From assembly GCA_963843975.1 (NCBI GenBank), contig CAWJMG010000003.1, forward strand, positions 2,070,001 through 2,102,000: a stretch of 32,000 bases of DNA, read 5' to 3'. How positions within the stretch are numbered: position 1 is the first letter of the stretch; the number at the start of each line of letters is the position of its first letter. The notes under the pieces are model-generated. The model saw only the letters and a program-made list of their open reading frames with translations. It did no database searches and was not told the DNA's origin. Source of the DNA: an uncultured Actinomycetes bacterium. GTDB taxonomy: Bacteria > Actinomycetota > Actinomycetes > S36-B12 > CAIYMF01. The position numbers were made by a program, and so were the translations under genes. Positions 3,652 through 31,920 of the stretch are shown piece after piece.

Positions 3652-6315
3652 GTGATAGTCGGACGCGATCTGGAGAAGCAGGCGGTCGAGGGCCTGGTCA
3701 CCTCGGCATGCGACGGTCAGGCTTCTGTGCTGCTGCTCGTCGGATTGCCTGGCATCGGCAAGACCTCGCTCCTCGACCACGCCGAAGAGGCAGCCGCCGC
3801 CAGAGGAATGTCCGTGTGGCGCCTGACCGCCGTCGAGGCCGAATCGGGCATCAGCGGCTCGGGCCTCAGCCTGCTGGGGCCGGTGGCATCGGACGACAGG
3901 CTCATGAGCCCGTGGGGCCTGCTCGATGTCCTCGCCACGGCTGCCGCGGACAATCCGCTGCTGCTCGCGGTCGACGACGCACACTGGCTCGACGAGGTGT
4001 CGCTCACAGCGCTGGGCTTCGCCTGCCGACGGCTCCAGTACGACGCGGTCGCTGTCGTCATGACTGCTCGGCCGGAGATCGACCTGCGCCACGAACTCTC
4101 CGGCGTCGGACGGATCGAGGTCGGTCCGCTGACGGACGACGAAGCCAGCGCCCTCCTCGTGCACACGTCGCCGGGGATGCCCGTCGACGTCGCCCGCTCG
4201 ATCGCCGCGTCCCTCGGTTGCGTCCCGCTGGCGCTGGTCGAGGCCCCCGCCCTGCTCCCGCTCGACATGCTCGAGGGCAGGACGGCGGTCACCTCGCCCC
4301 TCCCGGTAGGGCGTTCGATCACCGCCAGGTACGCGCGGGGCATCGACTCCCTTCCCGAGGCCACTCGCCGCGCTCTGGTGATCGCGTCGGCCAGTGACTC
4401 CGGCAGCGCGGCGACCATCGCCGAGGCGCTCGACCTCGCCGGGCTGTCCCCGGGGGACCTCGTGCCGGCGCACAAGGAGGGACTCGTCCTCCTCGACGGC
4501 GGATTCCGGTTCCGGCATCCGCTCGTGAGGTCCGCAGTCCACGCGGCGGCCCGCGACAGCGAGCGCCGGGACGCCCATCTCGTCCTGGCGGCGGTGGCCA
4601 GCCGCCAGGGCGACGAGGACGCCCGGCTGCGGCATGCGTCGGAAGCCGCGCTCGTGCCTGACGAGGCTCTCGCGGCCGGCCTCGAGGGGCGCGCTCCGGA
4701 GGTCGCGCGACGATGCGGCGGAGCCGCAGCCGCAGCCGCGCTCGAGCGCGCAGCCGAGCTCTCACCTGTCGTCGCTGACCGATGGCGCAGGTTGGTGGGT
4801 TCGCTCGAGCTCGCTGGCGCTGCGCCCGCGAGCGCGCGGCATGCCCACGAGGTGCTCGAGCAGTGCGCGGACCCCGAACTGCGCGCTCGTGCAGCCCTCG
4901 TCCTCGCGGACGAGCACCTCCCGGCCGCGGCGGCAGGGCTCCTCCTCGAGGATGCGTTGCGGGACCTGCCCCGGGGGGAGATCGCGGACGGGCTGATGGT
5001 TCTGCGGGCGCGCCTGGCGATGCACCAGCTGGACCTGCCTGCGTTGGATCGGATCGCCGAGCAGCTCCTGTCCTGGGAGGCGGACCAGCCCCTGTCCTGG
5101 AGGTGCGCGGGGACCGTCGGTGAGATCGCCACCTTCCGCGGTCGGCACCGCGAGGCTCGGGAGTGGATGCGGCGGGCGGTGCGTGACTCCGCCACCGATG
5201 ACGCCGACTCGCTCCCGCTCTACTCCTTGTTCGACTGGGTGGTCGTCGCCAACCACGTAGGCGAGGAATGCATGAACGACCCGCCGACCGCGGTGCGCCG
5301 GGCCGCCGCGTCACGCCGTTTCCGGGCGACCCGCGACCCGATCTGGATGGGGCTCGACGAGATGCTCGCCAGCGAGGCGGCACGCCGTGCGGGCAACCCG
5401 ACCCTCGCCGCGGTGACCGCCCGGTCGGCCCTCGGCTACGGCCCGGACACGGGAGGGCTCCGCACAGCGCTGCTGTCGCGTCTCGCGCAGGTCCTCGGCT
5501 CCGTCGGCGACGAGGCCGGTGCGCTCGCTGTGGCCGACGAGCTCGACAGCTACGCCGAGCTGCTCGACATGCCGTGGGAGGGCCTGTGGTCGCACTACGC
5601 GCGAGGGGTGCTGCACTTGGCGACTGGCCGTGCGGACGCCGCAGTTGTGGCGCTCGCGCGCTTCGACGGGATCGGTTATCTGGGTCGCGGGGTCCGGGAC
5701 GCGGTCGCCACGTCTCTCGTCATTCTCGTCGAGGCCTTCGCCGCCTCCGGTCGGGATTCCGACGCGCTTCGCGTCGCCGGCGACCTCGAGCGGTGGTTGG
5801 ACGGCTCGGCAGACCCTCTGGCCGCGGCCTTCGTCCACAGGGCCCACGCACTGGCCGGCACCGATGATCCGGATGTGCGCTTCACGACCTCGGCCCTGCA
5901 CCACCGCGCCACGGACGACCCGTTCGAGCTCGCACGAACCCTTCTCCTGCATGGGGAGTGGCTGCGTCGCAACCGGCGGCCCGCCGACTCGCGCATTCCG
6001 TTGCGGGAGTCGGCTGTGATCTTCGAGCGCCTGGGGGCGGCCACGTGGGCGGCACGGGCGCACAGCGAGCTGGCCGCCACCGGAGAGACGCGCGCACCCC
6101 TCGGGGGGTCCACTGCGGCGGCCGACCTGACGCCTCAGGAGCTCCGCATCGCCCTTGCCGTCGCCGAGGGCCTCAGCAACAACGAGATCGCGGCCGCGGT
6201 GTTCCTCAGCGTGAAGACCATCGAGACCCATCTGACGCGGCTCTACCGGAAGCTGGGCGTGCGCTCGCGGGCGGGCGTGGCCAAGGCGCTCGCCGAAGCC
6301 GGCATCGCCGCGTGA
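3652..6315 (+). CDS. Large ATP-binding LuxR-family regulator (LAL/MalT-like: N-terminal P-loop NTPase, helical/TPR-like middle, C-terminal LuxR HTH).
   Basis: Walker A GLPGIGKTSLL. C-terminal LTPQELRIALAVAEGLSNNEIAAAVFLSVKTIETHLTRLYRKLGV is a canonical LuxR/FixJ HTH. GTG 3652 (VIVGRDLEKQ…) fits the family N-terminus. The track start at 3619 is a TTG and is an alternative. Confidence 0.85.
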   Translation: MIVGRDLEKQAVEGLVTSACDGQASVLLLVGLPGIGKTSLLDHAEEAAAARGMSVWRLTAVEAESGISGSGLSLLGPVASDDRLMSPWGLLDVLATAAADNPLLLAVDDAHWLDEVSLTALGFACRRLQYDAVAVVMTARPEIDLRHELSGVGRIEVGPLTDDEASALLVHTSPGMPVDVARSIAASLGCVPLALVEAPALLPLDMLEGRTAVTSPLPVGRSITARYARGIDSLPEATRRALVIASASDSGSAATIAEALDLAGLSPGDLVPAHKEGLVLLDGGFRFRHPLVRSAVHAAARDSERRDAHLVLAAVASRQGDEDARLRHASEAALVPDEALAAGLEGRAPEVARRCGGAAAAAALERAAELSPVVADRWRRLVGSLELAGAAPASARHAHEVLEQCADPELRARAALVLADEHLPAAAAGLLLEDALRDLPRGEIADGLMVLRARLAMHQLDLPALDRIAEQLLSWEADQPLSWRCAGTVGEIATFRGRHREAREWMRRAVRDSATDDADSLPLYSLFDWVVVANHVGEECMNDPPTAVRRAAASRRFRATRDPIWMGLDEMLASEAARRAGNPTLAAVTARSALGYGPDTGGLRTALLSRLAQVLGSVGDEAGALAVADELDSYAELLDMPWEGLWSHYARGVLHLATGRADAAVVALARFDGIGYLGRGVRDAVATSLVILVEAFAASGRDSDALRVAGDLERWLDGSADPLAAAFVHRAHALAGTDDPDVRFTTSALHHRATDDPFELARTLLLHGEWLRRNRRPADSRIPLRESAVIFERLGAATWAARAHSELAATGETRAPLGGSTAAADLTPQELRIALAVAEGLSNNEIAAAVFLSVKTIETHLTRLYRKLGVRSRAGVAKALAEAGIAA

Positions 6316-24197: not shown

Positions 24198-25112
24198 TCA
24201 GGCGACGTCGTCGAGCACCAGCGCGGCGGCGCCGGCCACCCCGGCGGTCGTGCCGAGCATGGGCAGGGTGACCCGGCACCGCTCCACGAAGTCGTAGCCG
24301 GCGTGCTCGTGGAACGACGCGCGCAGCGGGTCCCAGAACACGTGCCCCGCCTGGGAGATGCCACCGCCGACGACGGCGACGTCGAGGTCGAGCAGCGCGG
24401 CCGACGACGCGATCGCCTGGCCCACCGCACGTCCCGCCCGGTCGAACGCAGCGATGCAGGCGGCATCGCCCTGCCGCGCGCCCTGGGCCACGGCCACGCC
24501 CGTCTGCTCGCCCTGCCACCCGAGGCTCACGGCGTACGCCGCGAGCGCCGGCCCGCGGGCGATCGGCTCGAGGCAGCCGCGCGCGCCGCAGCGGCACATC
24601 TCTCCGTCGGGCGCGACGATCGTGTGGCCGAGGTGCCCGGCGTTGCCGGTCTTGCCGTCGATGCGGCGCCCGCCGAGGACGAGGCCCGCGCCGACGCCGG
24701 TCGAGACCACCATCCCGAGCACGTGCCCGTGCCCGCGTCCGGCGCCCCAACGGTGCTCGGCGACGGCGAGGGCGACGGCGTCGTTGTGGATGGCGATCGG
24801 GCGGTCTCCCGCGTACCGCTCACGGACGCGCTCGAGCAGCGGGAAGCCGCGCCAGGCCGCCATGTTGCCGGGAGAGACGACACCGGACGGCCACTCCATC
24901 GGGCCGCCGCAGCCGACGCCGACGGCCTCGTAGCCGTCGCCCTCCTCCGCGATCACGCGGTCGAGAACGGCGCAGACCGTCTCCCAGACCGCCTCTGCGT
25001 CGACAGATTGCGGTGTGTCCTCGCGGACGTAGCCCACGACCTCGCCGTCGCGCCGGACGAGCCCGGCGGCCGTCTTCGTGCCGCCGACGTCGAGCCCGAG
25101 CACGAGAGTCAC
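24198..25112 (-). CDS. ROK-family sugar kinase (no N-terminal HTH).
   Basis: VTLVLGLDVGGTKTAAG (ATP-binding motif), …NDAVALAVAEHRWGAG…, and the zinc motif GHLGHTIVAPDGEMCRCGARGCLE. GTG 25112 overlaps the FIST stop (GTGA). Confidence 0.85.
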   Translation of the reverse strand: MTLVLGLDVGGTKTAAGLVRRDGEVVGYVREDTPQSVDAEAVWETVCAVLDRVIAEEGDGYEAVGVGCGGPMEWPSGVVSPGNMAAWRGFPLLERVRERYAGDRPIAIHNDAVALAVAEHRWGAGRGHGHVLGMVVSTGVGAGLVLGGRRIDGKTGNAGHLGHTIVAPDGEMCRCGARGCLEPIARGPALAAYAVSLGWQGEQTGVAVAQGARQGDAACIAAFDRAGRAVGQAIASSAALLDLDVAVVGGGISQAGHVFWDPLRASFHEHAGYDFVERCRVTLPMLGTTAGVAGAAALVLDDVA

Positions 25113-26305
25113 CGCAACGCGTCCTCGAAGGCCAGCACCGTGGCCGAGACGCCGTGCACGTGGTTGCGGCCGCCGACGGGGCCGATCTCGCCGGCGGCGA
25201 AGAAGCCGCCGACGTGCTCGACGCCGAGGGCGCCGCGCACGGCCGCGACGTCGTGCTCCGGCGAGGCGAAGAGATCGCGGCCGCGGCCGTCGCCGGTGAA
25301 GAGAAGCGCACCCGCGAGCCGGTCGAATCCGACGTCGCGCCGCAGGGACACGAGCCCCTCGACGAGGTCCTCGTGCGCCGACGACGCGTCGCGCAGGAGG
25401 AACTGCACGGTCGCCCCGACGGGAACGACGTCGCCCACGGAGATGGAGCCGTCGAGGTCGTCGGCCGCCACGATGCCGCGTGCGACGAAGTCGCCGTGGC
25501 CGTGCTCGTACACGTACTCGTCCATCGCGACCCCGAGGTGCAGGCCGTGCACAGCCAGGTCGCGCGAGTCCTCGGGCAGCTCGGAGATCGCGACCTTCGC
25601 CTGCATCAGCGGCGACTGACCCGCGAGCGCCGTGATGCGGCTGCCCTCCGACGCGGTCACGGTCATCGGTCGGCCGATCGGGCGGCAGCCCTGGGAGACG
25701 ACCGTCCGTACGGCGACGTCTCCCCCGAGCACGACGCCGACGGCGCCGCGGTCGACCACGCGGCCGTCCACGAGCAGGCGCGTTCCCTGCGCCTCCGCAG
25801 CGCCCGACGCCAGGCCGCCGACGAGCGGCAGACCTCGGAGCACGTCGTACGACTGGCCGACGAATCCGTCCACGGGGAACGACCACGGGTCGGCGAGCAG
25901 GACACCGACGGCGTCGTCGACACGGCGCTCGGGCATGCCGACGACGGCGATGGCCTCGGACGTGCGCAGCACCTCGAGGTGGAACGAGCGGAGGGCCACC
26001 CCCGGCAGGCGAGCCGCCCAGACGCTGACGGCGGGGTCGCCCTCGACCGCGCGGCCGGCGCCGATGACGCCGTGGGCGGAGCAGCCGAGCACCGTCGCGG
26101 CGTCGATGCGGTCGGACGCCGCGAGCAGTGCTGCCTCGGTCTGCTCCGGGGACCCGCCGGCCACCCACACGAGGGCGAGGTCGGGAGCGGGCCCCGGCCC
26201 GAGCTGCAGGAGCGCAGCATCGGCCGCCCGGCGCGCGGTCTCGACGAGGTCGCTGCCCATCGCCAGGCCGTCACCGGTGCGCGTGGTCACGGCCAGGGAG
26301 GTCAC
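25109..26305 (-). CDS. FIST-domain (FIST_N + FIST_C) putative sensory protein.
   Basis: …DLALVWVAGGSPEQTEAALLA…VLGCSAHGVIGAG…VSVWAARLPG… then …GALLFTGDGRGRDLF…EHDVAAVRGALG…VGGFFAAGEIGPVGGRNHVHGVSATVLAF, a typical FIST_C ending. The start is uncertain: GTG 26305 (AGGA 7 nt upstream), GTG 26311 or TTG 26344. Confidence 0.75.
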   Translation of the reverse strand: MTSLAVTTRTGDGLAMGSDLVETARRAADAALLQLGPGPAPDLALVWVAGGSPEQTEAALLAASDRIDAATVLGCSAHGVIGAGRAVEGDPAVSVWAARLPGVALRSFHLEVLRTSEAIAVVGMPERRVDDAVGVLLADPWSFPVDGFVGQSYDVLRGLPLVGGLASGAAEAQGTRLLVDGRVVDRGAVGVVLGGDVAVRTVVSQGCRPIGRPMTVTASEGSRITALAGQSPLMQAKVAISELPEDSRDLAVHGLHLGVAMDEYVYEHGHGDFVARGIVAADDLDGSISVGDVVPVGATVQFLLRDASSAHEDLVEGLVSLRRDVGFDRLAGALLFTGDGRGRDLFASPEHDVAAVRGALGVEHVGGFFAAGEIGPVGGRNHVHGVSATVLAFEDALR

Positions 26306-26503
26306 CCGCACATCCTGGCCCACTGCAGCCTCGCCGTTCAGCAAACGTCACCCGTCCGTGCACCACCCGTTCCGGTGACTCCGCTGCAACGCCCGCCGGG
26401 GTCGCTCAGCGGACGCCCGCCGTGGCCTATTCCCATGATCGCTGCGCGGACGGCGTACGACCGACCTGGTGCGCTCGCGGGTGGGGCGACGTACGGTCAG
26501 GAG

Positions 26504-27931
26504 GTGACCGAGCTGCGCGTCCCCGACGCTCCCGCCGACCTCCCCCGCACCCTCGGCGCCCTGCGGGCGTCCGGGCACGAGCACCTCACTGTGAAGGCGG
26601 AGCTGCGCACCAACCTGGTGGCCTGCCTGGTCGCCGGCGAGGACCCGTTCCCGGGTGTCGTCGGCATCGAGGACACCGTGCGCCCGCAGCTCGAGCGCGC
26701 GATCCTCGCCGGCCACGACCTCGTGCTCCTCGGCGAGCGCGGCCAGGGCAAGACGCGCCTGCTGCGCACCCTCGTCGGCCTGCTCGACGAGTGGACGCCG
26801 GTGCTCGAGGGCAGCGAGCTCAACGAGCACCCGTACGACCCGGTCTCGGTCTGGGCCAAGCGCCAGGTGGCCACGCACGGCGACGCGACCGCCGTCGGCT
26901 GGCTGCACCGCTCGGCCCGCTACGGCGAGAAGCTGGCGACCCCCGACACCAGCGTCGGCGACCTCATCGGCGACGTCGACCCGGTGAAGGTGGCCGAGGG
27001 CCGCACCCTGGGCGACCCGGAGACGGTTCACTACGGCCTCGTGCCGCGGACGAACCGCGGCATCTTCGCCATCAACGAGCTCCCCGACCTTGCCGAGCGC
27101 ATCCAGGTGTCGCTGCTCAACGTGCTCGAGGAGCGCGACATCCAGGTGCGCGGCTACGCGCTGCGCCTCCCCCTCGACCTCATGCTCGTCGCGAGCGCGA
27201 ACCCCGAGGACTACACCAACCGCGGCCGCATCATCACGCCGCTCAAGGACCGCTTCGGCGCCGAGATCCGCACGCACTACCCGCTGCGCCTCGCCGACGA
27301 GATCTCGCTCGTGCGCCAGGAGGCCGACCTCCAGGCCCAGGTGCCGCACCACCTGCTCGAGGTGGTCTCGCGCTTCACGCGGCTCGTCCGCGAGTCGACG
27401 GCCGTCGACCAGCGCTCCGGCGTGTCGGCGCGCTTCTCGGTCGCGGCGGCCGAGTCGCTCGCGGCGAGCGCCCTTCGACGGGCCGCCATCACCGGTGAGG
27501 CGCTCGGCGTCGCCCGGGTCGGCGACCTCCCGGCCGTCGTGCCGACGCTGCGCGGCAAGGTCGAGTTCGAGGTGAGCGAGGAGGGTCGCGAGGAGGAGGT
27601 GCTGCAGCACCTGCTCAAGCGCGCCGTGGCCGAGACCTTCCGGGCCCGCCTCGGTGGCGTCGACCTGACCGCGCTCATCACCCGCTTCGACGAGGGCACC
27701 TCGATCGAGGTGGGCGACCTCATCACGAGCGAGGAGATCCTGCGCCGCGTCGGGCCGGTCGACGGGCTCGGGCGCATCGTGTCCGCGCTCGAGGGCGAGG
27801 AGGCCGGCGGCGAGTCGCCGGGCATCGTCGCGTCGTGCCTCGAGACCGTGCTCGAGGGGCTCTACCTCACCCGCCGCATCTCCAAGGACGAGGTGCCCGG
27901 CGGCGGCCGCGCCGTCTACGGCGGTGCGTGA
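26504..27931 (+). CDS. ChlI/BchI-like AAA+ ATPase (often auto-annotated as a sigma-54-interacting or Mg-chelatase subunit).
   Basis: Walker A LLGERGQGKTRLLR. Walker B-like GIFAINELPDL. ChlI-type sensor/Arg-finger region ASANPEDYTNRGRIITPLKDRFG. The start is uncertain: GTG 26504 directly abuts GGAGG, and ATG 26435 is the alternative. Upstream of about 26435 the 972-aa track ORF is antisense shadow. Confidence 0.85.
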   Translation: MTELRVPDAPADLPRTLGALRASGHEHLTVKAELRTNLVACLVAGEDPFPGVVGIEDTVRPQLERAILAGHDLVLLGERGQGKTRLLRTLVGLLDEWTPVLEGSELNEHPYDPVSVWAKRQVATHGDATAVGWLHRSARYGEKLATPDTSVGDLIGDVDPVKVAEGRTLGDPETVHYGLVPRTNRGIFAINELPDLAERIQVSLLNVLEERDIQVRGYALRLPLDLMLVASANPEDYTNRGRIITPLKDRFGAEIRTHYPLRLADEISLVRQEADLQAQVPHHLLEVVSRFTRLVRESTAVDQRSGVSARFSVAAAESLAASALRRAAITGEALGVARVGDLPAVVPTLRGKVEFEVSEEGREEEVLQHLLKRAVAETFRARLGGVDLTALITRFDEGTSIEVGDLITSEEILRRVGPVDGLGRIVSALEGEEAGGESPGIVASCLETVLEGLYLTRRISKDEVPGGGRAVYGGA

Positions 27932-27938
27932 GCCGGTG

Positions 27939-28436
27939 TCAGCCCTCGATGCGCTCGACCGTCACCGCGGTGCCGTACGCCGCGACCTCGTTCATGAGGT
28001 CGGCGATCTCGCCGGTGTCGAAGCGCATGGCCAGCACTGCGTTGCCGCCGACCTGGTGCGCGGCGTAGCGCATCCGCTCGACTGCCTCGAGGCGGCTGTC
28101 GGACAGCAGCTTGGTGTAGCCCTTGGCCTCGCCGCCGAACACCGTGCGGAAGCCCGCGCCCATGTTGGAGAACATGTTGCGCGCGCGGACCGTGATGCCG
28201 AAGACCTCGCCGTGCACCGCGGTCACGCGGTAGCCGGGCAGGTCCGGCGTGGTCACGACCAGGATCGGCGGCCCGATGTAGCGCGCGGGCAGGGCGCCCA
28301 CCTCGCCGTCCGCCTGCTGGGAGATCGACGGCTGCACGCGGTCGGTCCAGCTCGCGCCGTCCCACCAGCGCAGCTGGGTGGAGTTTTCGGGGTTCGGGTA
28401 CCAGCCCTCCGGGGGCAGTCCGCTCGCGTCGTTCAT
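27939..28436 (-). CDS. DUF2510 N-terminal module fused to a YbjQ/UPF0145 (annotated as heavy-metal-binding) domain.
   Basis: GWYPNPENSTQLRWWDGASWTDRV is the DUF2510 signature. …PGYRVTAVHGEVFGITVRARNMFSNMGAGFRTVFGGEAKGYTKLLSDSRLEAVERMRYAAHQVGGNAVLAMRFD is the YbjQ signature. Confidence 0.85.
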   Translation of the reverse strand: MNDASGLPPEGWYPNPENSTQLRWWDGASWTDRVQPSISQQADGEVGALPARYIGPPILVVTTPDLPGYRVTAVHGEVFGITVRARNMFSNMGAGFRTVFGGEAKGYTKLLSDSRLEAVERMRYAAHQVGGNAVLAMRFDTGEIADLMNEVAAYGTAVTVERIEG

Positions 28437-28492
28437 GCCGCCACCGTACGACGCCGGCCCGGCGTTGGCTCGGGTCGAGAGGTGACCTTGAC

Positions 28493-30454
28493 ATGAACCG
28501 CTACCGCTACGGCGCGTACGACGACGGGCCCGACCCCCTGGCCGCGCCGTACGACGCCGGTCGCGCGGTCGACGAGCTCGGCGACCGCGTGCTCGACGGC
28601 CTCGGCGTGCGTGACGCCGTGCGCGACCTGCTGCAGCGCGGCGCCGACGGCGTCCGCGGCCTCGACGACCTCATGCGCACGGTGCAGCAGCGGCGTCGCT
28701 CGCTCGAGCGCTCGGGCCGCATGGACGGGATGCTCGAGAAGGCCGCCGAGATGCTCGACCAGGCCGTGGAGCAGGAGCGCTCGGCGCTGTTCCCCGACCC
28801 GTCGGACGACGCGCGCTTCCGCGAGGCTCAGCTCGACAACCTGCCGTCGTCGACCTCGCGCGCGGTGCGCGAGCTGTCGGAGTACGACTGGCGCTCGCCC
28901 GAGGCGCGGCAGACGTTCGAGGACCTCAAGGACATGCTGCGCCGGGACGTGCTCGACCAGCAGTTCCGCGGGATGAAGCAGGCCCTGCAGGACCCGGCCG
29001 GCTCGGAGTCGCGCGAGCGGCTGAAGAACATGATGGCCGACCTCAACCAGATGCTCGAGAAGCACGCGCGCGGCGAGGACACCGAGCAGGACTTCGCCGA
29101 CTTCATGGACAAGCACGGCGAGTTCTTCCCCGAGAACCCCGAGAACATCGAGCAGCTGCTCGACCAGCTCGCGCGCCAGGCAGCGGCGATGCAGCGGATG
29201 CTCGAGTCGATGACGCCCGAGCAGCGCGAGGAGCTCGCCGAGCTCATGGCCGACGCGCTCGGCGACATGGACCTCGCCTCGGAGATGGGTCGGCTCACCG
29301 ACAACCTTCGAGCGATGCGCCCGGACCTCCCGTGGAGCGGGCGTCAGCGGCTGCGCGGCGACGAGCAGCTCGGGCTCGGTGACGCCACCGAGGCGCTCGC
29401 CGACCTCGCCGACCTCGACGCGCTGTCGGAGGCCCTCGGCCAGGACTACGCAGGGGCCTCGCTCGAGGACGTCGACGAGGAGGCGGTCGCGCGCGCCCTC
29501 GGACGTCAGGCGGTCGACGACCTCAAGCGGCTGCAGGAGATCGAGCGCGAGCTCGAGCGCCAGGGCTACCTCACGCGCAAGGGCGGCGAGATCGAGCTGA
29601 CCGCCAAGGCGATCCGACGTATAGGCCAGACGGCGCTCCGCCGGGTCTTCGCCTCGCTCGAGTCAGGCGGTCGCGGCGACCACGACGTGCACGACGCCGG
29701 TGCCGCGGGCGAGCTCACGGGGACGACGCGCGAGTGGCGCTTCGGCGACGAGCAGCCGCTGGACGTCGTGAAGACCGTGTCGAACGCCGTCCGCCGTCGC
29801 ATGGTCGACAGCGACGGCCCCCTGCTGCGGCCCGAGGACTTCGAGATCCGCGAGACCGAGCGGCGCACCCGTGCGGCCGTCGTTCTCCTGGTCGACCAGT
29901 CGTTCTCGATGGTCATGAACGACACGTGGCGTACGGCGAAGACCACGGCGATGGCGCTGCACGCGCTGGCGACGACGCAGTTCCCGCTCGACGCCGTCGA
30001 GATCATCGCGTTCGCCAACCTCGCGCGACGCATCTCGCCGCACGAGCTGCCCGACCTCGACGCGAACGAGGTGCAGGGCACCAACCTGCAGCACGCGCTC
30101 ATGCTCGCCGGCCGATTCCTCGACAAGCATCCGGACGCCGAGCCCGTCGTGCTCGTGGTGACCGACGGCGAGCCGACCGCGCACCTCGATCGCGACGGGG
30201 AGTGGTGGTTCCAGTGGCCGCCGGGGCCGGAGACGATCGAGCTCACGCTCGCCGAGGTCGACAAGATGACCCGCCGCGGCGTGCCGCTGTCGTTCTTCCG
30301 CCTCGGCGACGAGCCGCGCCTCGCGCAGTTCCTCGACGACATCGCGCGCCGCAACGGCGGCCGCGTGCTCGCCCCCGAGGGCGATCGCCTCGGCGACTAC
30401 GTGGTGAGCGACTACCTCAAGCGCCGCAGCGGCACCCGCCGTCGCTCCGCCTGA
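28493..30454 (+). CDS. VWA-domain protein with a long acidic helical N-terminal region (about 430 aa).
   Basis: C-terminal VWA domain with MIDAS motif VVLLVDQSFSM, then …VVLVVTDGEPTAH… The N-terminus is rich in D/E/R/L heptad-like sequence. ATG with GAGAGGTG upstream. Confidence 0.85.
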   Translation: MNRYRYGAYDDGPDPLAAPYDAGRAVDELGDRVLDGLGVRDAVRDLLQRGADGVRGLDDLMRTVQQRRRSLERSGRMDGMLEKAAEMLDQAVEQERSALFPDPSDDARFREAQLDNLPSSTSRAVRELSEYDWRSPEARQTFEDLKDMLRRDVLDQQFRGMKQALQDPAGSESRERLKNMMADLNQMLEKHARGEDTEQDFADFMDKHGEFFPENPENIEQLLDQLARQAAAMQRMLESMTPEQREELAELMADALGDMDLASEMGRLTDNLRAMRPDLPWSGRQRLRGDEQLGLGDATEALADLADLDALSEALGQDYAGASLEDVDEEAVARALGRQAVDDLKRLQEIERELERQGYLTRKGGEIELTAKAIRRIGQTALRRVFASLESGGRGDHDVHDAGAAGELTGTTREWRFGDEQPLDVVKTVSNAVRRRMVDSDGPLLRPEDFEIRETERRTRAAVVLLVDQSFSMVMNDTWRTAKTTAMALHALATTQFPLDAVEIIAFANLARRISPHELPDLDANEVQGTNLQHALMLAGRFLDKHPDAEPVVLVVTDGEPTAHLDRDGEWWFQWPPGPETIELTLAEVDKMTRRGVPLSFFRLGDEPRLAQFLDDIARRNGGRVLAPEGDRLGDYVVSDYLKRRSGTRRRSA

Positions 30455-30600: not shown

Positions 30601-31920
30601 ATGAGCGACGGGCGCCGCTCCCCCTTTGCCGCCGCTCGCGCCCAGTGGGACTTCAAGGGTCTGCCGCGCGAGGTCGTCGTGCTCTCCGCCGTCGCGTTCT
30701 GCGTGGCGCTCGGGTTCGGCATCGTGGCACCGGCGATCCCGCTCTTCGCCCAGGAGTTCGACGTCACCGCGTTCTGGGCCAGCTCGGTGATCAGCGCGTT
30801 CGCGCTGATGCGGCTCATCGGTGCGCTGCCCGCAGGCTGGCTCGTCGACCGCGCCGGCGAGCGCATGACCCTGATCATCGGCCTCACCATCGTGGCCGCT
30901 TCCTCGGCCGTCGCCGGGCTGTCCACCACATTCGTCCAGCTGATCGTTCTGCGAGGGATCGGCGGGCTCGGCTCGGCCATGTTCACCGTGTCGGCGCTCG
31001 CGCTGCTGCTGCGCGTCGCAGCACCCGATCAGCGCGGACGTGCCGCCGCGGTGTTCCAGGGCGGCTTCCTGCTCGGCGGGATCGTGGGCCCGTTCTTCGG
31101 CGGACTCGTGCTCGGCATCTCCATCCGGCTGCCCTTCTTCGTGTACGCCGCGACCCTCGGCGCGGCGGTGGTCGTGGTGATCGTGACCTTGTCCCGCACC
31201 CACCTGCTCGACGCCCCGACTGCGGCAGCCACGGACGCGTCCGGCGGTGAGGAAGGGGCGAGGTGGAGGCAGCTACGCATCGCGCTGCGCGACCGCGCCT
31301 ACGTCACGGCGCTGTCGGTCAACCTCGGCAACGGCTTCGCGTCGTTCGGCCTCCGCAGTGCGATCGTGCCGCTGTTCGTCGTGAACGCGCTCGCCCTCCC
31401 GGCCGCGTGGGTGGGGTACGGCGCCTTCGTGTCGGCGCTGGTGCAGGCGCCGTTGCTGTTCATCGCCGGCCCCGCGACCGACACCCGCGGCCGGCGGTTC
31501 GCCCTGATGCTGGGCACCGGCCTCACGGCCGTGGCGTTCGTCGTGCTCGCAGGACTCGAGACGCTGCCCGGCTTCCTGCTCGCCATGGCCGTCTTCGGCG
31601 CCGGCGCTGCCTTCCTCGGGTCCGGCCCCGCGGCCGTCGTCGGGGACATCACGGGCGGGCGCCGCGAGGGCCCGATCGTCGCGACGTTCCAGATGATGAG
31701 CGACCTCGGCGGCGTCGTCGGCCCGCTCCTCGCCGGCGCGATCGTGACGGCCACCGACTCCTACACGCTCGGATTCACGGTGGGCGCGGTAGTCCTGGCG
31801 ATCACGTTCGTCATGTCCGCGACGATGCCGGAGACCCTCGGCCGGGCGATGTCCCAGACTGCCACCGCACCGACGCTCGACCCCGCCACCGAGCCCGAGG
31901 CCCCACCGGCGTCGCCCTGA
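30601..31920 (+). CDS. MFS transporter.
   Basis: 439 aa with about 12 TM segments. The MFS loop 2-3 motif is LPAGWLVDRAGERMTLIIG. Typical duplicated 6+6 layout. Confidence 0.9.
   Translation: MSDGRRSPFAAARAQWDFKGLPREVVVLSAVAFCVALGFGIVAPAIPLFAQEFDVTAFWASSVISAFALMRLIGALPAGWLVDRAGERMTLIIGLTIVAASSAVAGLSTTFVQLIVLRGIGGLGSAMFTVSALALLLRVAAPDQRGRAAAVFQGGFLLGGIVGPFFGGLVLGISIRLPFFVYAATLGAAVVVVIVTLSRTHLLDAPTAAATDASGGEEGARWRQLRIALRDRAYVTALSVNLGNGFASFGLRSAIVPLFVVNALALPAAWVGYGAFVSALVQAPLLFIAGPATDTRGRRFALMLGTGLTAVAFVVLAGLETLPGFLLAMAVFGAGAAFLGSGPAAVVGDITGGRREGPIVATFQMMSDLGGVVGPLLAGAIVTATDSYTLGFTVGAVVLAITFVMSATMPETLGRAMSQTATAPTLDPATEPEAPPASP

What the first reader, a model, noticed from the sequence alone, without database searches (positions are those of the whole stretch)
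26435..30454. Orphan chelatase-like AAA+ (ChlI-type) / VWA pair, split by an opposite-strand DUF2510-YbjQ gene
The ATPase has ChlI/BchI-type motifs. The partner has a C-terminal MIDAS-containing VWA domain preceded by about 430 aa of acidic helical sequence. This recalls the ChlI/ChlD motor, but there is no ChlD AAA-like N-terminus and no ChlH/CobN-type substrate subunit in the window. Such ATPase/VWA pairs are normally adjacent and co-transcribed. Here a 165-aa gene sits between them on the other strand, only 7 nt from the ATPase stop (convergent, no room for a terminator) and 56 nt from the VWA start (divergent). The VWA gene therefore needs its own promoter, and read-through from the ATPase gene would be antisense to the YbjQ gene. 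YbjQ-family proteins are annotated as putative heavy-metal-binding, so the three may form a metal-handling or remodelling module of unknown substrate. The FIST-ROK pair lies divergently upstream.
Basis: partly seen in the sequence, partly recalled or inferred. Interest (0 to 1): 0.6.

Follow-up and report, generated by a model that had tools for sequence, protein, structure and literature searches.

The report
Split ATPase–VWA pair with passenger gene
A widespread but uncharacterised actinobacterial motor/adaptor gene pair (the Rv0958/Rv0959 type) is interrupted here by an old, optional small gene that relatives have repeatedly lost, so the interruption looks like a tolerated passenger, not a third subunit.

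Summary
A ChlI-like AAA+ ATPase gene (26435-27931, +) and a gene for an acidic-helical protein ending in a VWA/MIDAS domain (28493-30454, +) are separated by a DUF2510-YbjQ gene on the other strand (27939-28436). The gaps are 7 nt (convergent) and 56 nt (divergent).

The pair belongs to a large, uncharacterised family. The two genes co-occur in exactly the same 88 of 251 sampled Actinomycetota genomes. Mycobacterial orthologues cluster with the M. tuberculosis "magnesium chelatase"/vWA proteins (Rv0958/Rv0959 type). It is not a tetrapyrrole chelatase: the genome has no CobN/ChlH, the VWA partner has no AAA-like N-domain, and scores fall far below the curated cut-offs.

The YbjQ insert is old and confined to Nanopelagicales-type relatives. 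Its divergence tracks that of the flanking genes, and it has its own leaderless-type promoter geometry. It is also dispensable:
- 8 of 24 congeners have the pair contiguous and no YbjQ orthologue anywhere.
- One family kept YbjQ at this site but lost the pair.
- Elsewhere in the phylum the same junction holds unrelated genes.

The three-part "metal module" reading is therefore not supported. The scan has noted this pair before on other genomes. Interest is modest. The pair itself (invariant Walker-B Asn, invariant MIDAS, 430-aa helical arm with no structural relative) is the better target.

The parts
26435..27931 (+). ChlI-like AAA+ ATPase, 498 aa, Rv0958 type. Walker A GERGQGKT at aa 100-107 (nt 26732-26755). 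Walker B reads hhhhNE, with N214-E215 at nt 27074-27079.
   Evidence: Pfam and NCBIfam hits. The nearest solved relatives by sequence and by fold are ChlI/BchI, then NorQ, MCM and LonC. Motifs are invariant in 113 and in 49 orthologues.
27932..27938 (.). 7-nt spacer between the convergent stop codons of the ATPase and YbjQ genes.
   Evidence: Read directly from the sequence. No terminator-like hairpin; fold z-scores 0.01 and 0.21. The spacing is not conserved: 3 nt in G021, about 18 nt in G011, longer in G033.
27939..28436 (-). DUF2510-YbjQ (UPF0145) fusion gene, 165 aa. A lineage-specific insert between the pair genes.
   Evidence: Pfam YbjQ_1 117 bits and DUF2510 41 bits. Orthologues sit at the same site in 15 congeners and in G033, L045, L047 and L054. 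At least 120 clusters with the same fusion exist, mostly Nanopelagicales. Its divergence tracks the flanks, Spearman 0.82.
28437..28492 (.). 56-nt divergent spacer. On the minus strand a TACGGT hexamer (plus-strand ACCGTA, 28443-28448) lies 6 nt upstream of the YbjQ ATG. This is the geometry of a leaderless-mRNA promoter. A GAGAGG Shine-Dalgarno-like run precedes the VWA ATG.
   Evidence: Sequence. A TANNNT hexamer lies 6-7 nt before the YbjQ ATG in the 10 insert-bearing loci whose start could be placed, and possibly in the rest. The consensus sigma-70 scan found no promoter. No VWA promoter was identified.
28493..30454 (+). VWA/MIDAS partner, 653 aa, Rv0959 type. Acidic all-helical region at aa 1 to about 430, and a VWA domain at about aa 445-646. 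MIDAS DxSxS at aa 468-472 (nt 29894-29908), with T530 and D558.
   Evidence: Pfam VWA_2. Invariant MIDAS. AlphaFold2 model with mean pLDDT 77. Foldseek matches cover only the VWA part, best NorD in the NorQD complex (9qhe_G, E 9.7e-7). The helical part has no PDB relative by sequence.
24198..26344 (-). ROK (24198-25112) and FIST (25109-26344) genes, divergent from the ATPase gene. Conserved synteny, not shown to be functionally linked.
   Evidence: Pfam. FIST lies next to the ATPase gene in about 36 of 80 orthologous loci across several actinomycete orders. They stay together after a rearrangement in G032. There is no phyletic coupling or adjacency in the phylum-wide sample.
30601..31920 (+). 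MFS transporter gene downstream of the VWA gene. A conserved neighbour in Nanopelagicales-type relatives.
   Evidence: Pfam MFS_1. Synteny in L023-L043.

Best explanation
Two separate things overlap here.

**1. The ATPase and VWA genes encode a two-component AAA+/MIDAS remodelling machine.**
- It belongs to a large, uncharacterised, vertically inherited family, the mycobacterial Rv0958/Rv0959 type.
- By analogy with ChlI-ChlD, CobS-CobT and NorQ-NorD, the ATPase would form a hexameric clade-7 AAA+ ring. The ring would pull or twist on its VWA partner.
- The partner's MIDAS site and long acidic helical arm would engage a still-unknown client.
- It is not a tetrapyrrole chelatase.
- The family-wide Asp-to-Asn change in Walker B suggests slow or switch-like ATP turnover.
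- Status: family membership, strict pairing and motif conservation are shown. Ring formation, the pulling action and the client are inferred.

**2. The DUF2510-YbjQ gene is an old, clade-specific insertion into the ancestral translationally coupled junction.**
- It brought its own leaderless-type promoter.
- It has been inherited with the locus in Nanopelagicales-type actinobacteria.
- It is functionally independent of the pair. It was lost at least four or five times, each loss restoring a coupled junction. It survives where the pair was deleted.
- Where it is present, the VWA gene must be expressed in one of two ways: from a promoter overlapping the start of YbjQ, or by read-through from the ATPase gene running antisense to YbjQ. 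Which one applies is untested.
For: **The pair**
- Both genes are present in exactly the same 88 of 251 phylum-sampled genomes and the same 30 of 41 relatives.
- The gene order ATPase then VWA, on the same strand, holds in all 79 genome-contig loci that carry both genes.
- The profile finds 1119 clusters (at 50% identity) at E<=1e-30, including one from Dehalococcoidia.
- Mycobacterial orthologues are 59-63% (ATPase) and about 50% (VWA) identical over full length. They sit in clusters with the M. tuberculosis 459-aa 'magnesium chelatase' and 672-aa 'vWA domain-containing protein'.
- Fold and sequence are nearest to ChlI and NorQ for the ATPase and to NorD for the VWA domain.
- Walker A, the Walker B N214-E215 and the MIDAS residues are invariant.

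**Not a chelatase**
- TIGR02030 scores 32.9 against a cut-off of 467. TIGR02031 scores 39 against 500.
- The genome has no CobN/ChlH.

**The insert**
- An orthologous YbjQ gene lies in the gap, on the opposite strand, in 16 of 25 genomes of the genus and in G033, L045, L047 and L054.
- YbjQ pairwise identity tracks flank identity (Spearman 0.82; mean identity 0.79 against 0.81).
- The 8 congeners with a contiguous pair have no full-length YbjQ orthologue.
- The junctions read in 4 of them (plus G029 of another family) are tight and mutually different: TGA-N4-ATG, an ATGA overlap, TGATG.
- The flank tree needs at least 5 state changes.
- L024 (G026) reads ROK-FIST-YbjQ|MFS, with the pair gone.
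- In other lineages the same junction holds a cyclase-like gene, YjbR, RpiA+GH1, a polysaccharide deacetylase or a small membrane protein.
- A TANNNT hexamer lies 6-7 nt before the YbjQ ATG across loci.
Against: - The insert has been kept at one site through about 25% protein divergence and across at least four families.
- After the G032 rearrangement it stayed divergently paired with the VWA gene while the ATPase moved 2.8 kb away. This is also what a functional or regulatory tie to the VWA gene would predict.
- Repeated 'precise' losses could instead be allele replacement by recombination with contiguous alleles. I cannot separate the two.
- No expression data were available.
- No multimer modelling was possible.
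- The ATPase model has low confidence in its conserved core, residues 177-280.
- The link to the locus tags Rv0958/Rv0959 rests on cluster names, lengths and papers. It does not rest on a direct alignment to H37Rv.
Confidence: 0.7

Rival explanations
1. DUF2510-YbjQ is a genuine accessory or regulator of the pair in Nanopelagicales. It could be a client or metal donor for the VWA protein. Alternatively, the convergent/divergent layout could act as a transcriptional-interference switch that sets the ATPase:VWA ratio.
For: - The same site and orientation are kept in 16 of 25 congeners and in other families.
- The gene is under purifying selection and co-diverges with the flanks.
- It stays divergently next to the VWA gene after the G032 rearrangement.
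- The stop codons are only 3-18 nt apart in three genomes, with no terminator in this window.
- No independent VWA promoter was found in the short spacer.
Against: - It was lost in 8 congeners and in G029 while the pair was retained.
- It was retained in G026 and G034 without the pair; the ROK-FIST-YbjQ|MFS context was read in G026 (L024).
- It is absent from the pair's neighbourhood in every other lineage examined.
- Other lineages carry unrelated genes at the same junction.
Confidence: 0.17
2. The pair is the I/D-type motor of a true ATP-dependent metal chelatase (Mg or Co) whose H/CobN-type subunit is encoded elsewhere.
For: ChlI/BchI are the nearest solved relatives of the ATPase. The VWA part gives a weak TIGR02442 hit. 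Source annotations call the orthologues 'magnesium chelatase'.
Against: - No CobN/ChlH match in the 93%-complete genome, while the control genomes gave matches.
- Scores are an order of magnitude below the curated cut-offs.
- The VWA partner has a helical N-terminus, not an AAA-like one.
- No large third gene appears in 79 neighbourhoods.
Confidence: 0.02
3. The pair is a mobile conflict or defence system of the MoxR-vWA type, and YbjQ is an effector or cargo.
For: A weak, sub-threshold hit to the bpMoxR domain of MoxR-vWA-beta-propeller ternary systems (18 bits against a cut-off of 27).
Against: - The pair is single-copy, sits in a chromosomal backbone position conserved across orders (ilvA-ROK-FIST|pair) and is inherited vertically.
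- No meaningful PADLOC hit.
- GC content is uniform across the window.
Confidence: 0.03

Closest known systems
Mycobacterial Rv0958 ('possible magnesium chelatase') / Rv0959 (conserved hypothetical vWA protein); MSMEG_5512 in M. smegmatis
   Same: Same two-gene architecture and gene order. Full-length similarity to mycobacterial orthologues is 59-63% (ATPase) and about 50% (VWA). Those orthologues cluster with M. tuberculosis proteins of 459 and 672 aa. No client is known.
   Different: In mycobacteria the genes are contiguous, and FIST is not adjacent. There is no YbjQ insert. The function is unknown there too. MSMEG_5512 co-purified with RNA polymerase but showed no DNA association (PMC7092591). 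A transposon insertion 49 bp upstream of the M. marinum orthologue appeared in a B12-resistance screen (PMC11237697).
ChlI/BchI-ChlD/BchD motor of Mg-chelatase (and CobS-CobT of cobaltochelatase)
   Same: Clade-7 AAA+ ATPase; nearest solved structures are 8osf and 1g8p. The partner ends in a MIDAS-bearing VWA domain.
   Different: The partner has no AAA-like N-domain. The genome has no ChlH/CobN. Scores are far below the equivalog cut-offs. Walker B has Asn in place of Asp. The ATPase carries about 190 extra C-terminal residues.
NorQ-NorD (MoxR-type AAA+/VWA pair that inserts non-haem iron into NO reductase)
   Same: NorD is the best structural match to the VWA domain (9qhe_G), and NorQ is the second-best match to the ATPase. 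The partner architecture is also similar: an N-terminal region, then a linker, then a VWA domain. In NorQD the ATPase ring acts on the partner through a VWA finger in the pore and remodels a linker (PMC13036017).
   Different: No NOR or other client gene is nearby. The ATPase is ChlI-like rather than MoxR proper (AAA_3 is below its cut-off). The 430-aa helical region has no match in NorD or anywhere in the PDB.
YbjQ/UPF0145 (PF01906) stand-alone proteins
   Same: A full-length YbjQ_1 domain.
   Different: Fused to an N-terminal DUF2510 module. This fusion is an orthologous group largely confined to Nanopelagicales-type genomes. The 'heavy-metal-binding' label is an annotation, not a tested function.

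Membership tests
Class I ATP-dependent chelatase (ChlI/BchI + ChlD/BchD + ChlH/BchH, or CobS/T/N) | I subunit reaches the curated equivalog score (TIGR02030, cut-off 466.95) | tested here: not met
   32.9 bits.
Class I ATP-dependent chelatase (ChlI/BchI + ChlD/BchD + ChlH/BchH, or CobS/T/N) | D subunit combines an AAA-like N-domain, an acidic linker and a VWA domain (TIGR02031, cut-off 499.55) | tested here: not met
   P0003 gives no TIGR02031 or AAA hit. Residues 22-356 are all helical in the model.
Class I ATP-dependent chelatase (ChlI/BchI + ChlD/BchD + ChlH/BchH, or CobS/T/N) | A large H/CobN substrate subunit (PF02514) is encoded in the genome | tested here: not met
   No match in the 93%-complete genome. 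The same search matched 5 of 14 control genomes. None appears in 79 neighbourhoods.
Class I ATP-dependent chelatase (ChlI/BchI + ChlD/BchD + ChlH/BchH, or CobS/T/N) | ChlI-like clade-7 AAA+ fold | tested here: met
   8osf and 1g8p are the best PDB hits by sequence and by profile. 8osf is the best fold hit.
AAA+/VWA remodelling pairs (MoxR-vWA, NorQ-NorD, CbbQ-CbbO, RavA-ViaA) | The partner carries a VWA domain with a complete MIDAS (DxSxS...T...D) | tested here: met
   D468, S470, S472, T530 and D558 are invariant. NorD is the best fold match.
AAA+/VWA remodelling pairs (MoxR-vWA, NorQ-NorD, CbbQ-CbbO, RavA-ViaA) | The ATPase and VWA genes co-occur and are linked | tested here: met
   Both genes are in the same 88 of 251 and the same 30 of 41 genomes. 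Most pairs are contiguous.
AAA+/VWA remodelling pairs (MoxR-vWA, NorQ-NorD, CbbQ-CbbO, RavA-ViaA) | The ATPase belongs to MoxR proper (AAA_3 / bpMoxR above cut-off) | tested here: not met
   AAA_3 scores 17.6 against a cut-off of 27. bpMoxR scores 18 against 27. AAA_5 scores 30.3 against 22 and passes.
AAA+/VWA remodelling pairs (MoxR-vWA, NorQ-NorD, CbbQ-CbbO, RavA-ViaA) | Physical ATPase-VWA complex and an identified client | not testable with these tools
   No multimer prediction or experiment was available.
Rv0958/Rv0959 orthologous group | Full-length similarity of both proteins to the mycobacterial pair, with the same gene order | tested here: met
   59-63% (ATPase) and about 50% (VWA) identity; the cluster names include M. 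tuberculosis 'magnesium chelatase' (459 aa) and 'vWA domain-containing protein' (672 aa).
Rv0958/Rv0959 orthologous group | Direct alignment to the H37Rv locus-tag proteins | not tested
The link rests on cluster names, lengths and papers.
YbjQ/UPF0145 | PF01906 above its cut-off over the whole domain | tested here: met
   117.1 bits against a cut-off of 23, profile positions 1-103 of 103.
YbjQ/UPF0145 | Heavy-metal binding | not testable with these tools
   This is an annotation only. The literature search found no functional study.
PrkA/YeaH (AAA-like kinase/protease + DUF444 VWA) | AAA_PrkA and DUF444 above their cut-offs | tested here: not met
   AAA_PrkA scores 24.5 against a cut-off of 25. 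P0003 gives no DUF444 hit.
Known anti-phage defence systems (PADLOC) | A significant match to a defence protein model | tested here: not met
   Only a P-loop-local hit and coiled-coil noise.

The most novel reading that the evidence does not exclude
The Rv0958/Rv0959-type pair may be a distinct, ancient class of AAA+/MIDAS machine. Its marks are an invariant Walker-B Asn, a 430-aa acidic helical arm with no structural relative, and an extra C-terminal domain of about 190 aa on the ATPase. Its client may be a membrane or envelope protein.

The hint is that small polytopic membrane proteins are encoded inside or just after the pair in several lineages:
- a protein of about 125 aa with four predicted TM segments (judged by eye from the sequence) between the genes in two families;
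- a DUF2269-like protein after the VWA gene in 29 of 79 loci;
- an MFS transporter here.

On this reading the DUF2510-YbjQ insert, where present, uncouples VWA expression from the ATPase.
Probability: 0.2. Interest if true: 0.6.

Novelty: new member of a known kind. Interest (0 to 1): 0.35.

Why it matters
AAA+/VWA pairs that have been solved turn out to be metal-insertion or enzyme-activation machines (Mg- and Co-chelatase, NorQD, CbbQO). This family is present in about a third of sampled Actinomycetota, including M. tuberculosis. It is strictly paired and highly conserved, yet it has no known client.

This locus adds three things:
- A natural experiment: alleles with and without a gene wedged between the partners occur within one genus.
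- Evidence that co-transcription of the two partners is not required.
- A clear negative: the neighbouring YbjQ and FIST genes are not obligate partners. This narrows the search for the client to biochemical trapping, not gene context.

Tried and rejected
- **Pfam PF27532 and PF27098:** these are precomputed on the VWA protein but absent from the local library, so their names remain unknown.
- **Promoter and terminator evidence:**
  - The consensus scan found no sigma-70-type promoter and no relevant terminator.
  - Folding of the convergent junction was no better than shuffles.
- **Structural relatives of the N-terminal helical region:** PDB sequence and profile searches found nothing. Foldseek matched only the VWA domain.
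- **FIST-ROK as functional partners:**
  - The adjacency holds in about 36 of 80 near relatives.
  - The even phylum sample shows FIST without the pair (f27 11/18, f31 4/4).
  - It also shows the pair without FIST (f30, and most mycobacteria).
  - It shows no adjacency elsewhere.
  - I downgraded this to conserved synteny.
- **Defence-system reading:** rejected.
- **True chelatase reading:** rejected.
- **Mobile element around the insert:** the junction sequences I read by eye showed no flanking repeats. I ran no dedicated repeat search across loci.
- **Two align_proteins calls** failed on a stop codon in L006. That locus was dropped.

Full report
**What is there.** The window is 72% GC throughout. 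It comes from a 4.19-Mb actinobacterial genome (G000, 93% complete). The closest database proteins are labelled Candidatus Nanopelagicales.

- ATPase, 26435-27931 (+).
- DUF2510-YbjQ, 27939-28436 (-).
- VWA, 28493-30454 (+).
- The stop-to-stop gap is 7 nt and the start-to-start gap is 56 nt.

Pfam gives Mg_chelatase and AAA_5 for the ATPase, YbjQ_1 plus DUF2510 for the middle gene, and VWA_2 at residues 463-560 of the third. FIST and ROK lie divergently upstream and an MFS transporter lies downstream.

**The pair is one conserved family.**
- In 40 relatives plus G000, both genes are present in the same 30 genomes.
- In an even draw of 250 Actinomycetota plus G000, both are present in exactly the same 88, family by family.
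- A profile of 50 orthologues finds 1119 clusters (at 50% identity) at E<=1e-30 among 1.84 billion representatives. One checked cluster is from Dehalococcoidia.
- In 80 named genome loci the family covers Actinomadura, Nonomuraea, Streptosporangium, Thermobifida, Frankia, Blastococcus, Modestobacter, Nocardia, Micromonospora, Actinoplanes and others. The ATPase gene lies upstream on the same strand in all 79 loci that reach it.
- Mycobacterial orthologues were cut from three genomes. They are 59-63% (ATPase) and about 50% (VWA) identical over full length.
- Those orthologues sit in 90%-identity clusters with M. tuberculosis proteins named 'magnesium chelatase / sigma-54-interacting regulator / ATP-binding protein' (459 aa) and 'vWA domain-containing protein' (672 aa).
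- This is the Rv0958/Rv0959 type. I did not align directly to H37Rv.

Papers give no function for this pair:
- MSMEG_5512 (the Rv0958 orthologue) co-purified with RNA polymerase but showed no DNA association (PMC7092591).
- An insertion 49 bp upstream of the M. marinum orthologue appeared in a B12-resistance screen (PMC11237697).

**What kind of machine.**
- By sequence and profile, the ATPase's nearest solved relatives are ChlI/BchI, then archaeal Lon.
- By fold they are ChlI, NorQ, MCM and LonC, which is the clade-7 AAA+ group.
- The ATPase model is poor in the conserved core, residues 177-280. I would expect this of the insert hairpins in a monomer model, so the fold scores are weak.
- Walker A (GERGQGKT) is invariant. 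Walker B reads hhhhNE, with N214-E215 invariant in 113 and in 49 orthologues. ChlI and Lon have Asp at that position.
- The VWA protein's MIDAS residues are invariant.
- In the VWA model (pLDDT 77) residues 22-356 are helical, followed by a VWA fold.
- Foldseek matches only the VWA part. The best match is NorD in the 2026 NorQD complex, followed by the VWA-fold subunits of TFIIH and the Rea1/Mdn1 MIDAS domain.
- The helical region has no relative in the PDB.
- In NorQD, a finger from the VWA domain enters the ATPase pore and the ring remodels a NorD linker (PMC13036017). This is the closest mechanistic template, by analogy only.

It is not a tetrapyrrole chelatase:
- The equivalog scores are 33-39 bits against cut-offs of 467-500.
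- The genome has no CobN/ChlH, although the controls gave matches.
- No large third gene appears in 79 neighbourhoods.

**The YbjQ insert within the genus and its order.**
- In the genus, 16 of 25 genomes (G000 included) have a gap of 514-630 nt between the pair. The gap holds an orthologous DUF2510-YbjQ gene on the opposite strand.
- In 8 genomes the pair is contiguous. One genome is broken at a contig end.
- The 8 contiguous genomes have no full-length YbjQ orthologue anywhere. Seven give only DUF2510-type hits at E 1e-6 to 1e-8, and G015 gives none.
- The junctions read in 4 of them (G020, G014, G016, G015), plus G029 of another family, are tight and mutually different: TGA-GGCG-ATG, TGA-GCCG-ATG, an ATGA overlap, TGATG and TGA-GAC-ATG.
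- G020, whose flanks are 96-97% identical to the window, lacks the insert. G021, at 96%, has it.
- A tree of the concatenated flanks needs at least 5 changes of state.

Outside the genus:
- G033 has the same layout, as do three named MAG loci (L045, L047, L054).
- G029, G030 and G037 have the pair contiguous.
- In G032 the block is permuted: YbjQ(-)|VWA(+)-MFS ... FIST(-)|ATPase(+). The break therefore fell between the ATPase and YbjQ genes.
- In G026 the locus reads ROK-FIST-YbjQ(-)|MFS(+). Both pair genes are gone and YbjQ remains.

YbjQ pairwise identity correlates with flank identity (Spearman 0.82; mean 0.79 against 0.81). The insert is therefore old, vertically co-inherited and under purifying selection.

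A TANNNT hexamer lies 6-7 nt upstream of the YbjQ ATG in the loci where the start could be placed. This is the geometry known for leaderless actinobacterial transcripts (established knowledge; its function here is inferred).

**The same junction elsewhere in the phylum.** By my hand count:
- About 50 pairs are within 170 nt of each other.
- About 28 are 0.48-10.8 kb apart.
- The rest are split across contigs.

I fetched 19 split loci. None holds a YbjQ homologue. The gaps hold other genes:
- A conserved protein of about 125 aa with four apparent TM segments (by eye), on the same strand just after the ATPase gene (six loci, four genera).
- A conserved cyclase-homology protein of about 185 aa on the opposite strand (three genera of one family).
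- YjbR.
- RpiA plus a GH1 enzyme, or GH1 alone, on the opposite strand.
- A polysaccharide deacetylase.

This family therefore tolerates separation of its two genes, often by opposite-strand genes. The YbjQ case is one of several independent examples.

**FIST-ROK.**
- The block ilvA-ROK-FIST, divergent from ATPase-VWA, is kept in about 36 of 80 named loci across several actinomycete orders.
- In G032, FIST stays with the ATPase gene after the rearrangement.
- In the even phylum sample, FIST homologues occur without the pair and the pair occurs without FIST. Where both exist outside that group they are not adjacent.
- I read this as backbone synteny, with at most a lineage-limited link.

**Verdict.** The 'orphan ChlI-like/VWA pair' reading is right, and the pair can be placed in the uncharacterised Rv0958/Rv0959 family. 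The 'three-gene metal module' reading is not supported. The insert is an ancient, clade-specific, dispensable passenger with its own promoter.

What remains open:
- How the VWA gene is transcribed when the insert is present.
- Whether the contiguous alleles arose by repeated deletion or by recombination.

Earlier first-stage notes of this scan describe the same pair on many other genomes, including the Walker-B Asn and the divergent FIST gene. I tested those points independently here.

Noticed in passing
L005:2594-2983(+), L007:3631-4020(-), L008:3610-4002(-), L012:5626-5997(-), L013:2416-2787(+), L019:4194-4559(-): In two other families of the phylum, a conserved protein of about 125 aa is encoded on the same strand directly after the ATPase gene, between it and the VWA gene. 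It looks like a four-TM membrane protein (by eye from the sequence). The copies are 51-84% identical to one another, with a weak DUF4079 hit. It is a candidate third component or client in those lineages.
   Followed up: partly
L006:3172-3735(+), L011:2391-2957(-), L017:2399-2947(-): In three genera of one family, a conserved protein of about 185 aa sits on the opposite strand between the ATPase and VWA genes. It gives a weak adenylate/guanylate-cyclase-domain hit, and the copies are 54-61% identical to one another. This is an independent parallel to the YbjQ insert.
   Followed up: partly
L051:8014-8571(+) and 28 other loci: A small integral membrane protein (weak DUF2269 hit) follows the VWA gene on the same strand in 29 of 79 orthologous loci. 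Next come cystathionine gamma-synthase/lyase-like and CBS-domain PLP enzymes on the other strand.
   Followed up: partly
L027 (G021), spacer between YbjQ and VWA, about 125 nt: This close relative has a longer divergent spacer. It contains an inverted repeat with arms of about 14 nt (TTACTGCCCAAA... / ...TTTGGGCAGTAA) that is absent from the window. It could be an operator or a small inserted element.
   Followed up: no
window 27074-27079 (ATPase N214-E215): Walker B is hhhhNE instead of hhhhDE in every orthologue examined (113 sequences). This is a family-defining substitution whose effect on ATP turnover is unknown.
   Followed up: partly
L024 (G026) 3754-5470: Where the pair has been lost, YbjQ lies 53 nt upstream of FIST on the same strand, giving YbjQ-FIST-ROK. 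That would allow co-transcription of the three.
   Followed up: no
L072, L092, L100 (Nonomuraea, Microtetraspora): Gaps of 0.87-1.1 kb lie between the ATPase and VWA genes in these Streptosporangiales. Their content was not examined.
   Followed up: no
cluster 2: One 90%-identity cluster mixes mycobacterial ATPase entries (459-461 aa) with vWA entries (593-672 aa). Some deposited gene calls probably fuse or overlap the two genes.
   Followed up: no
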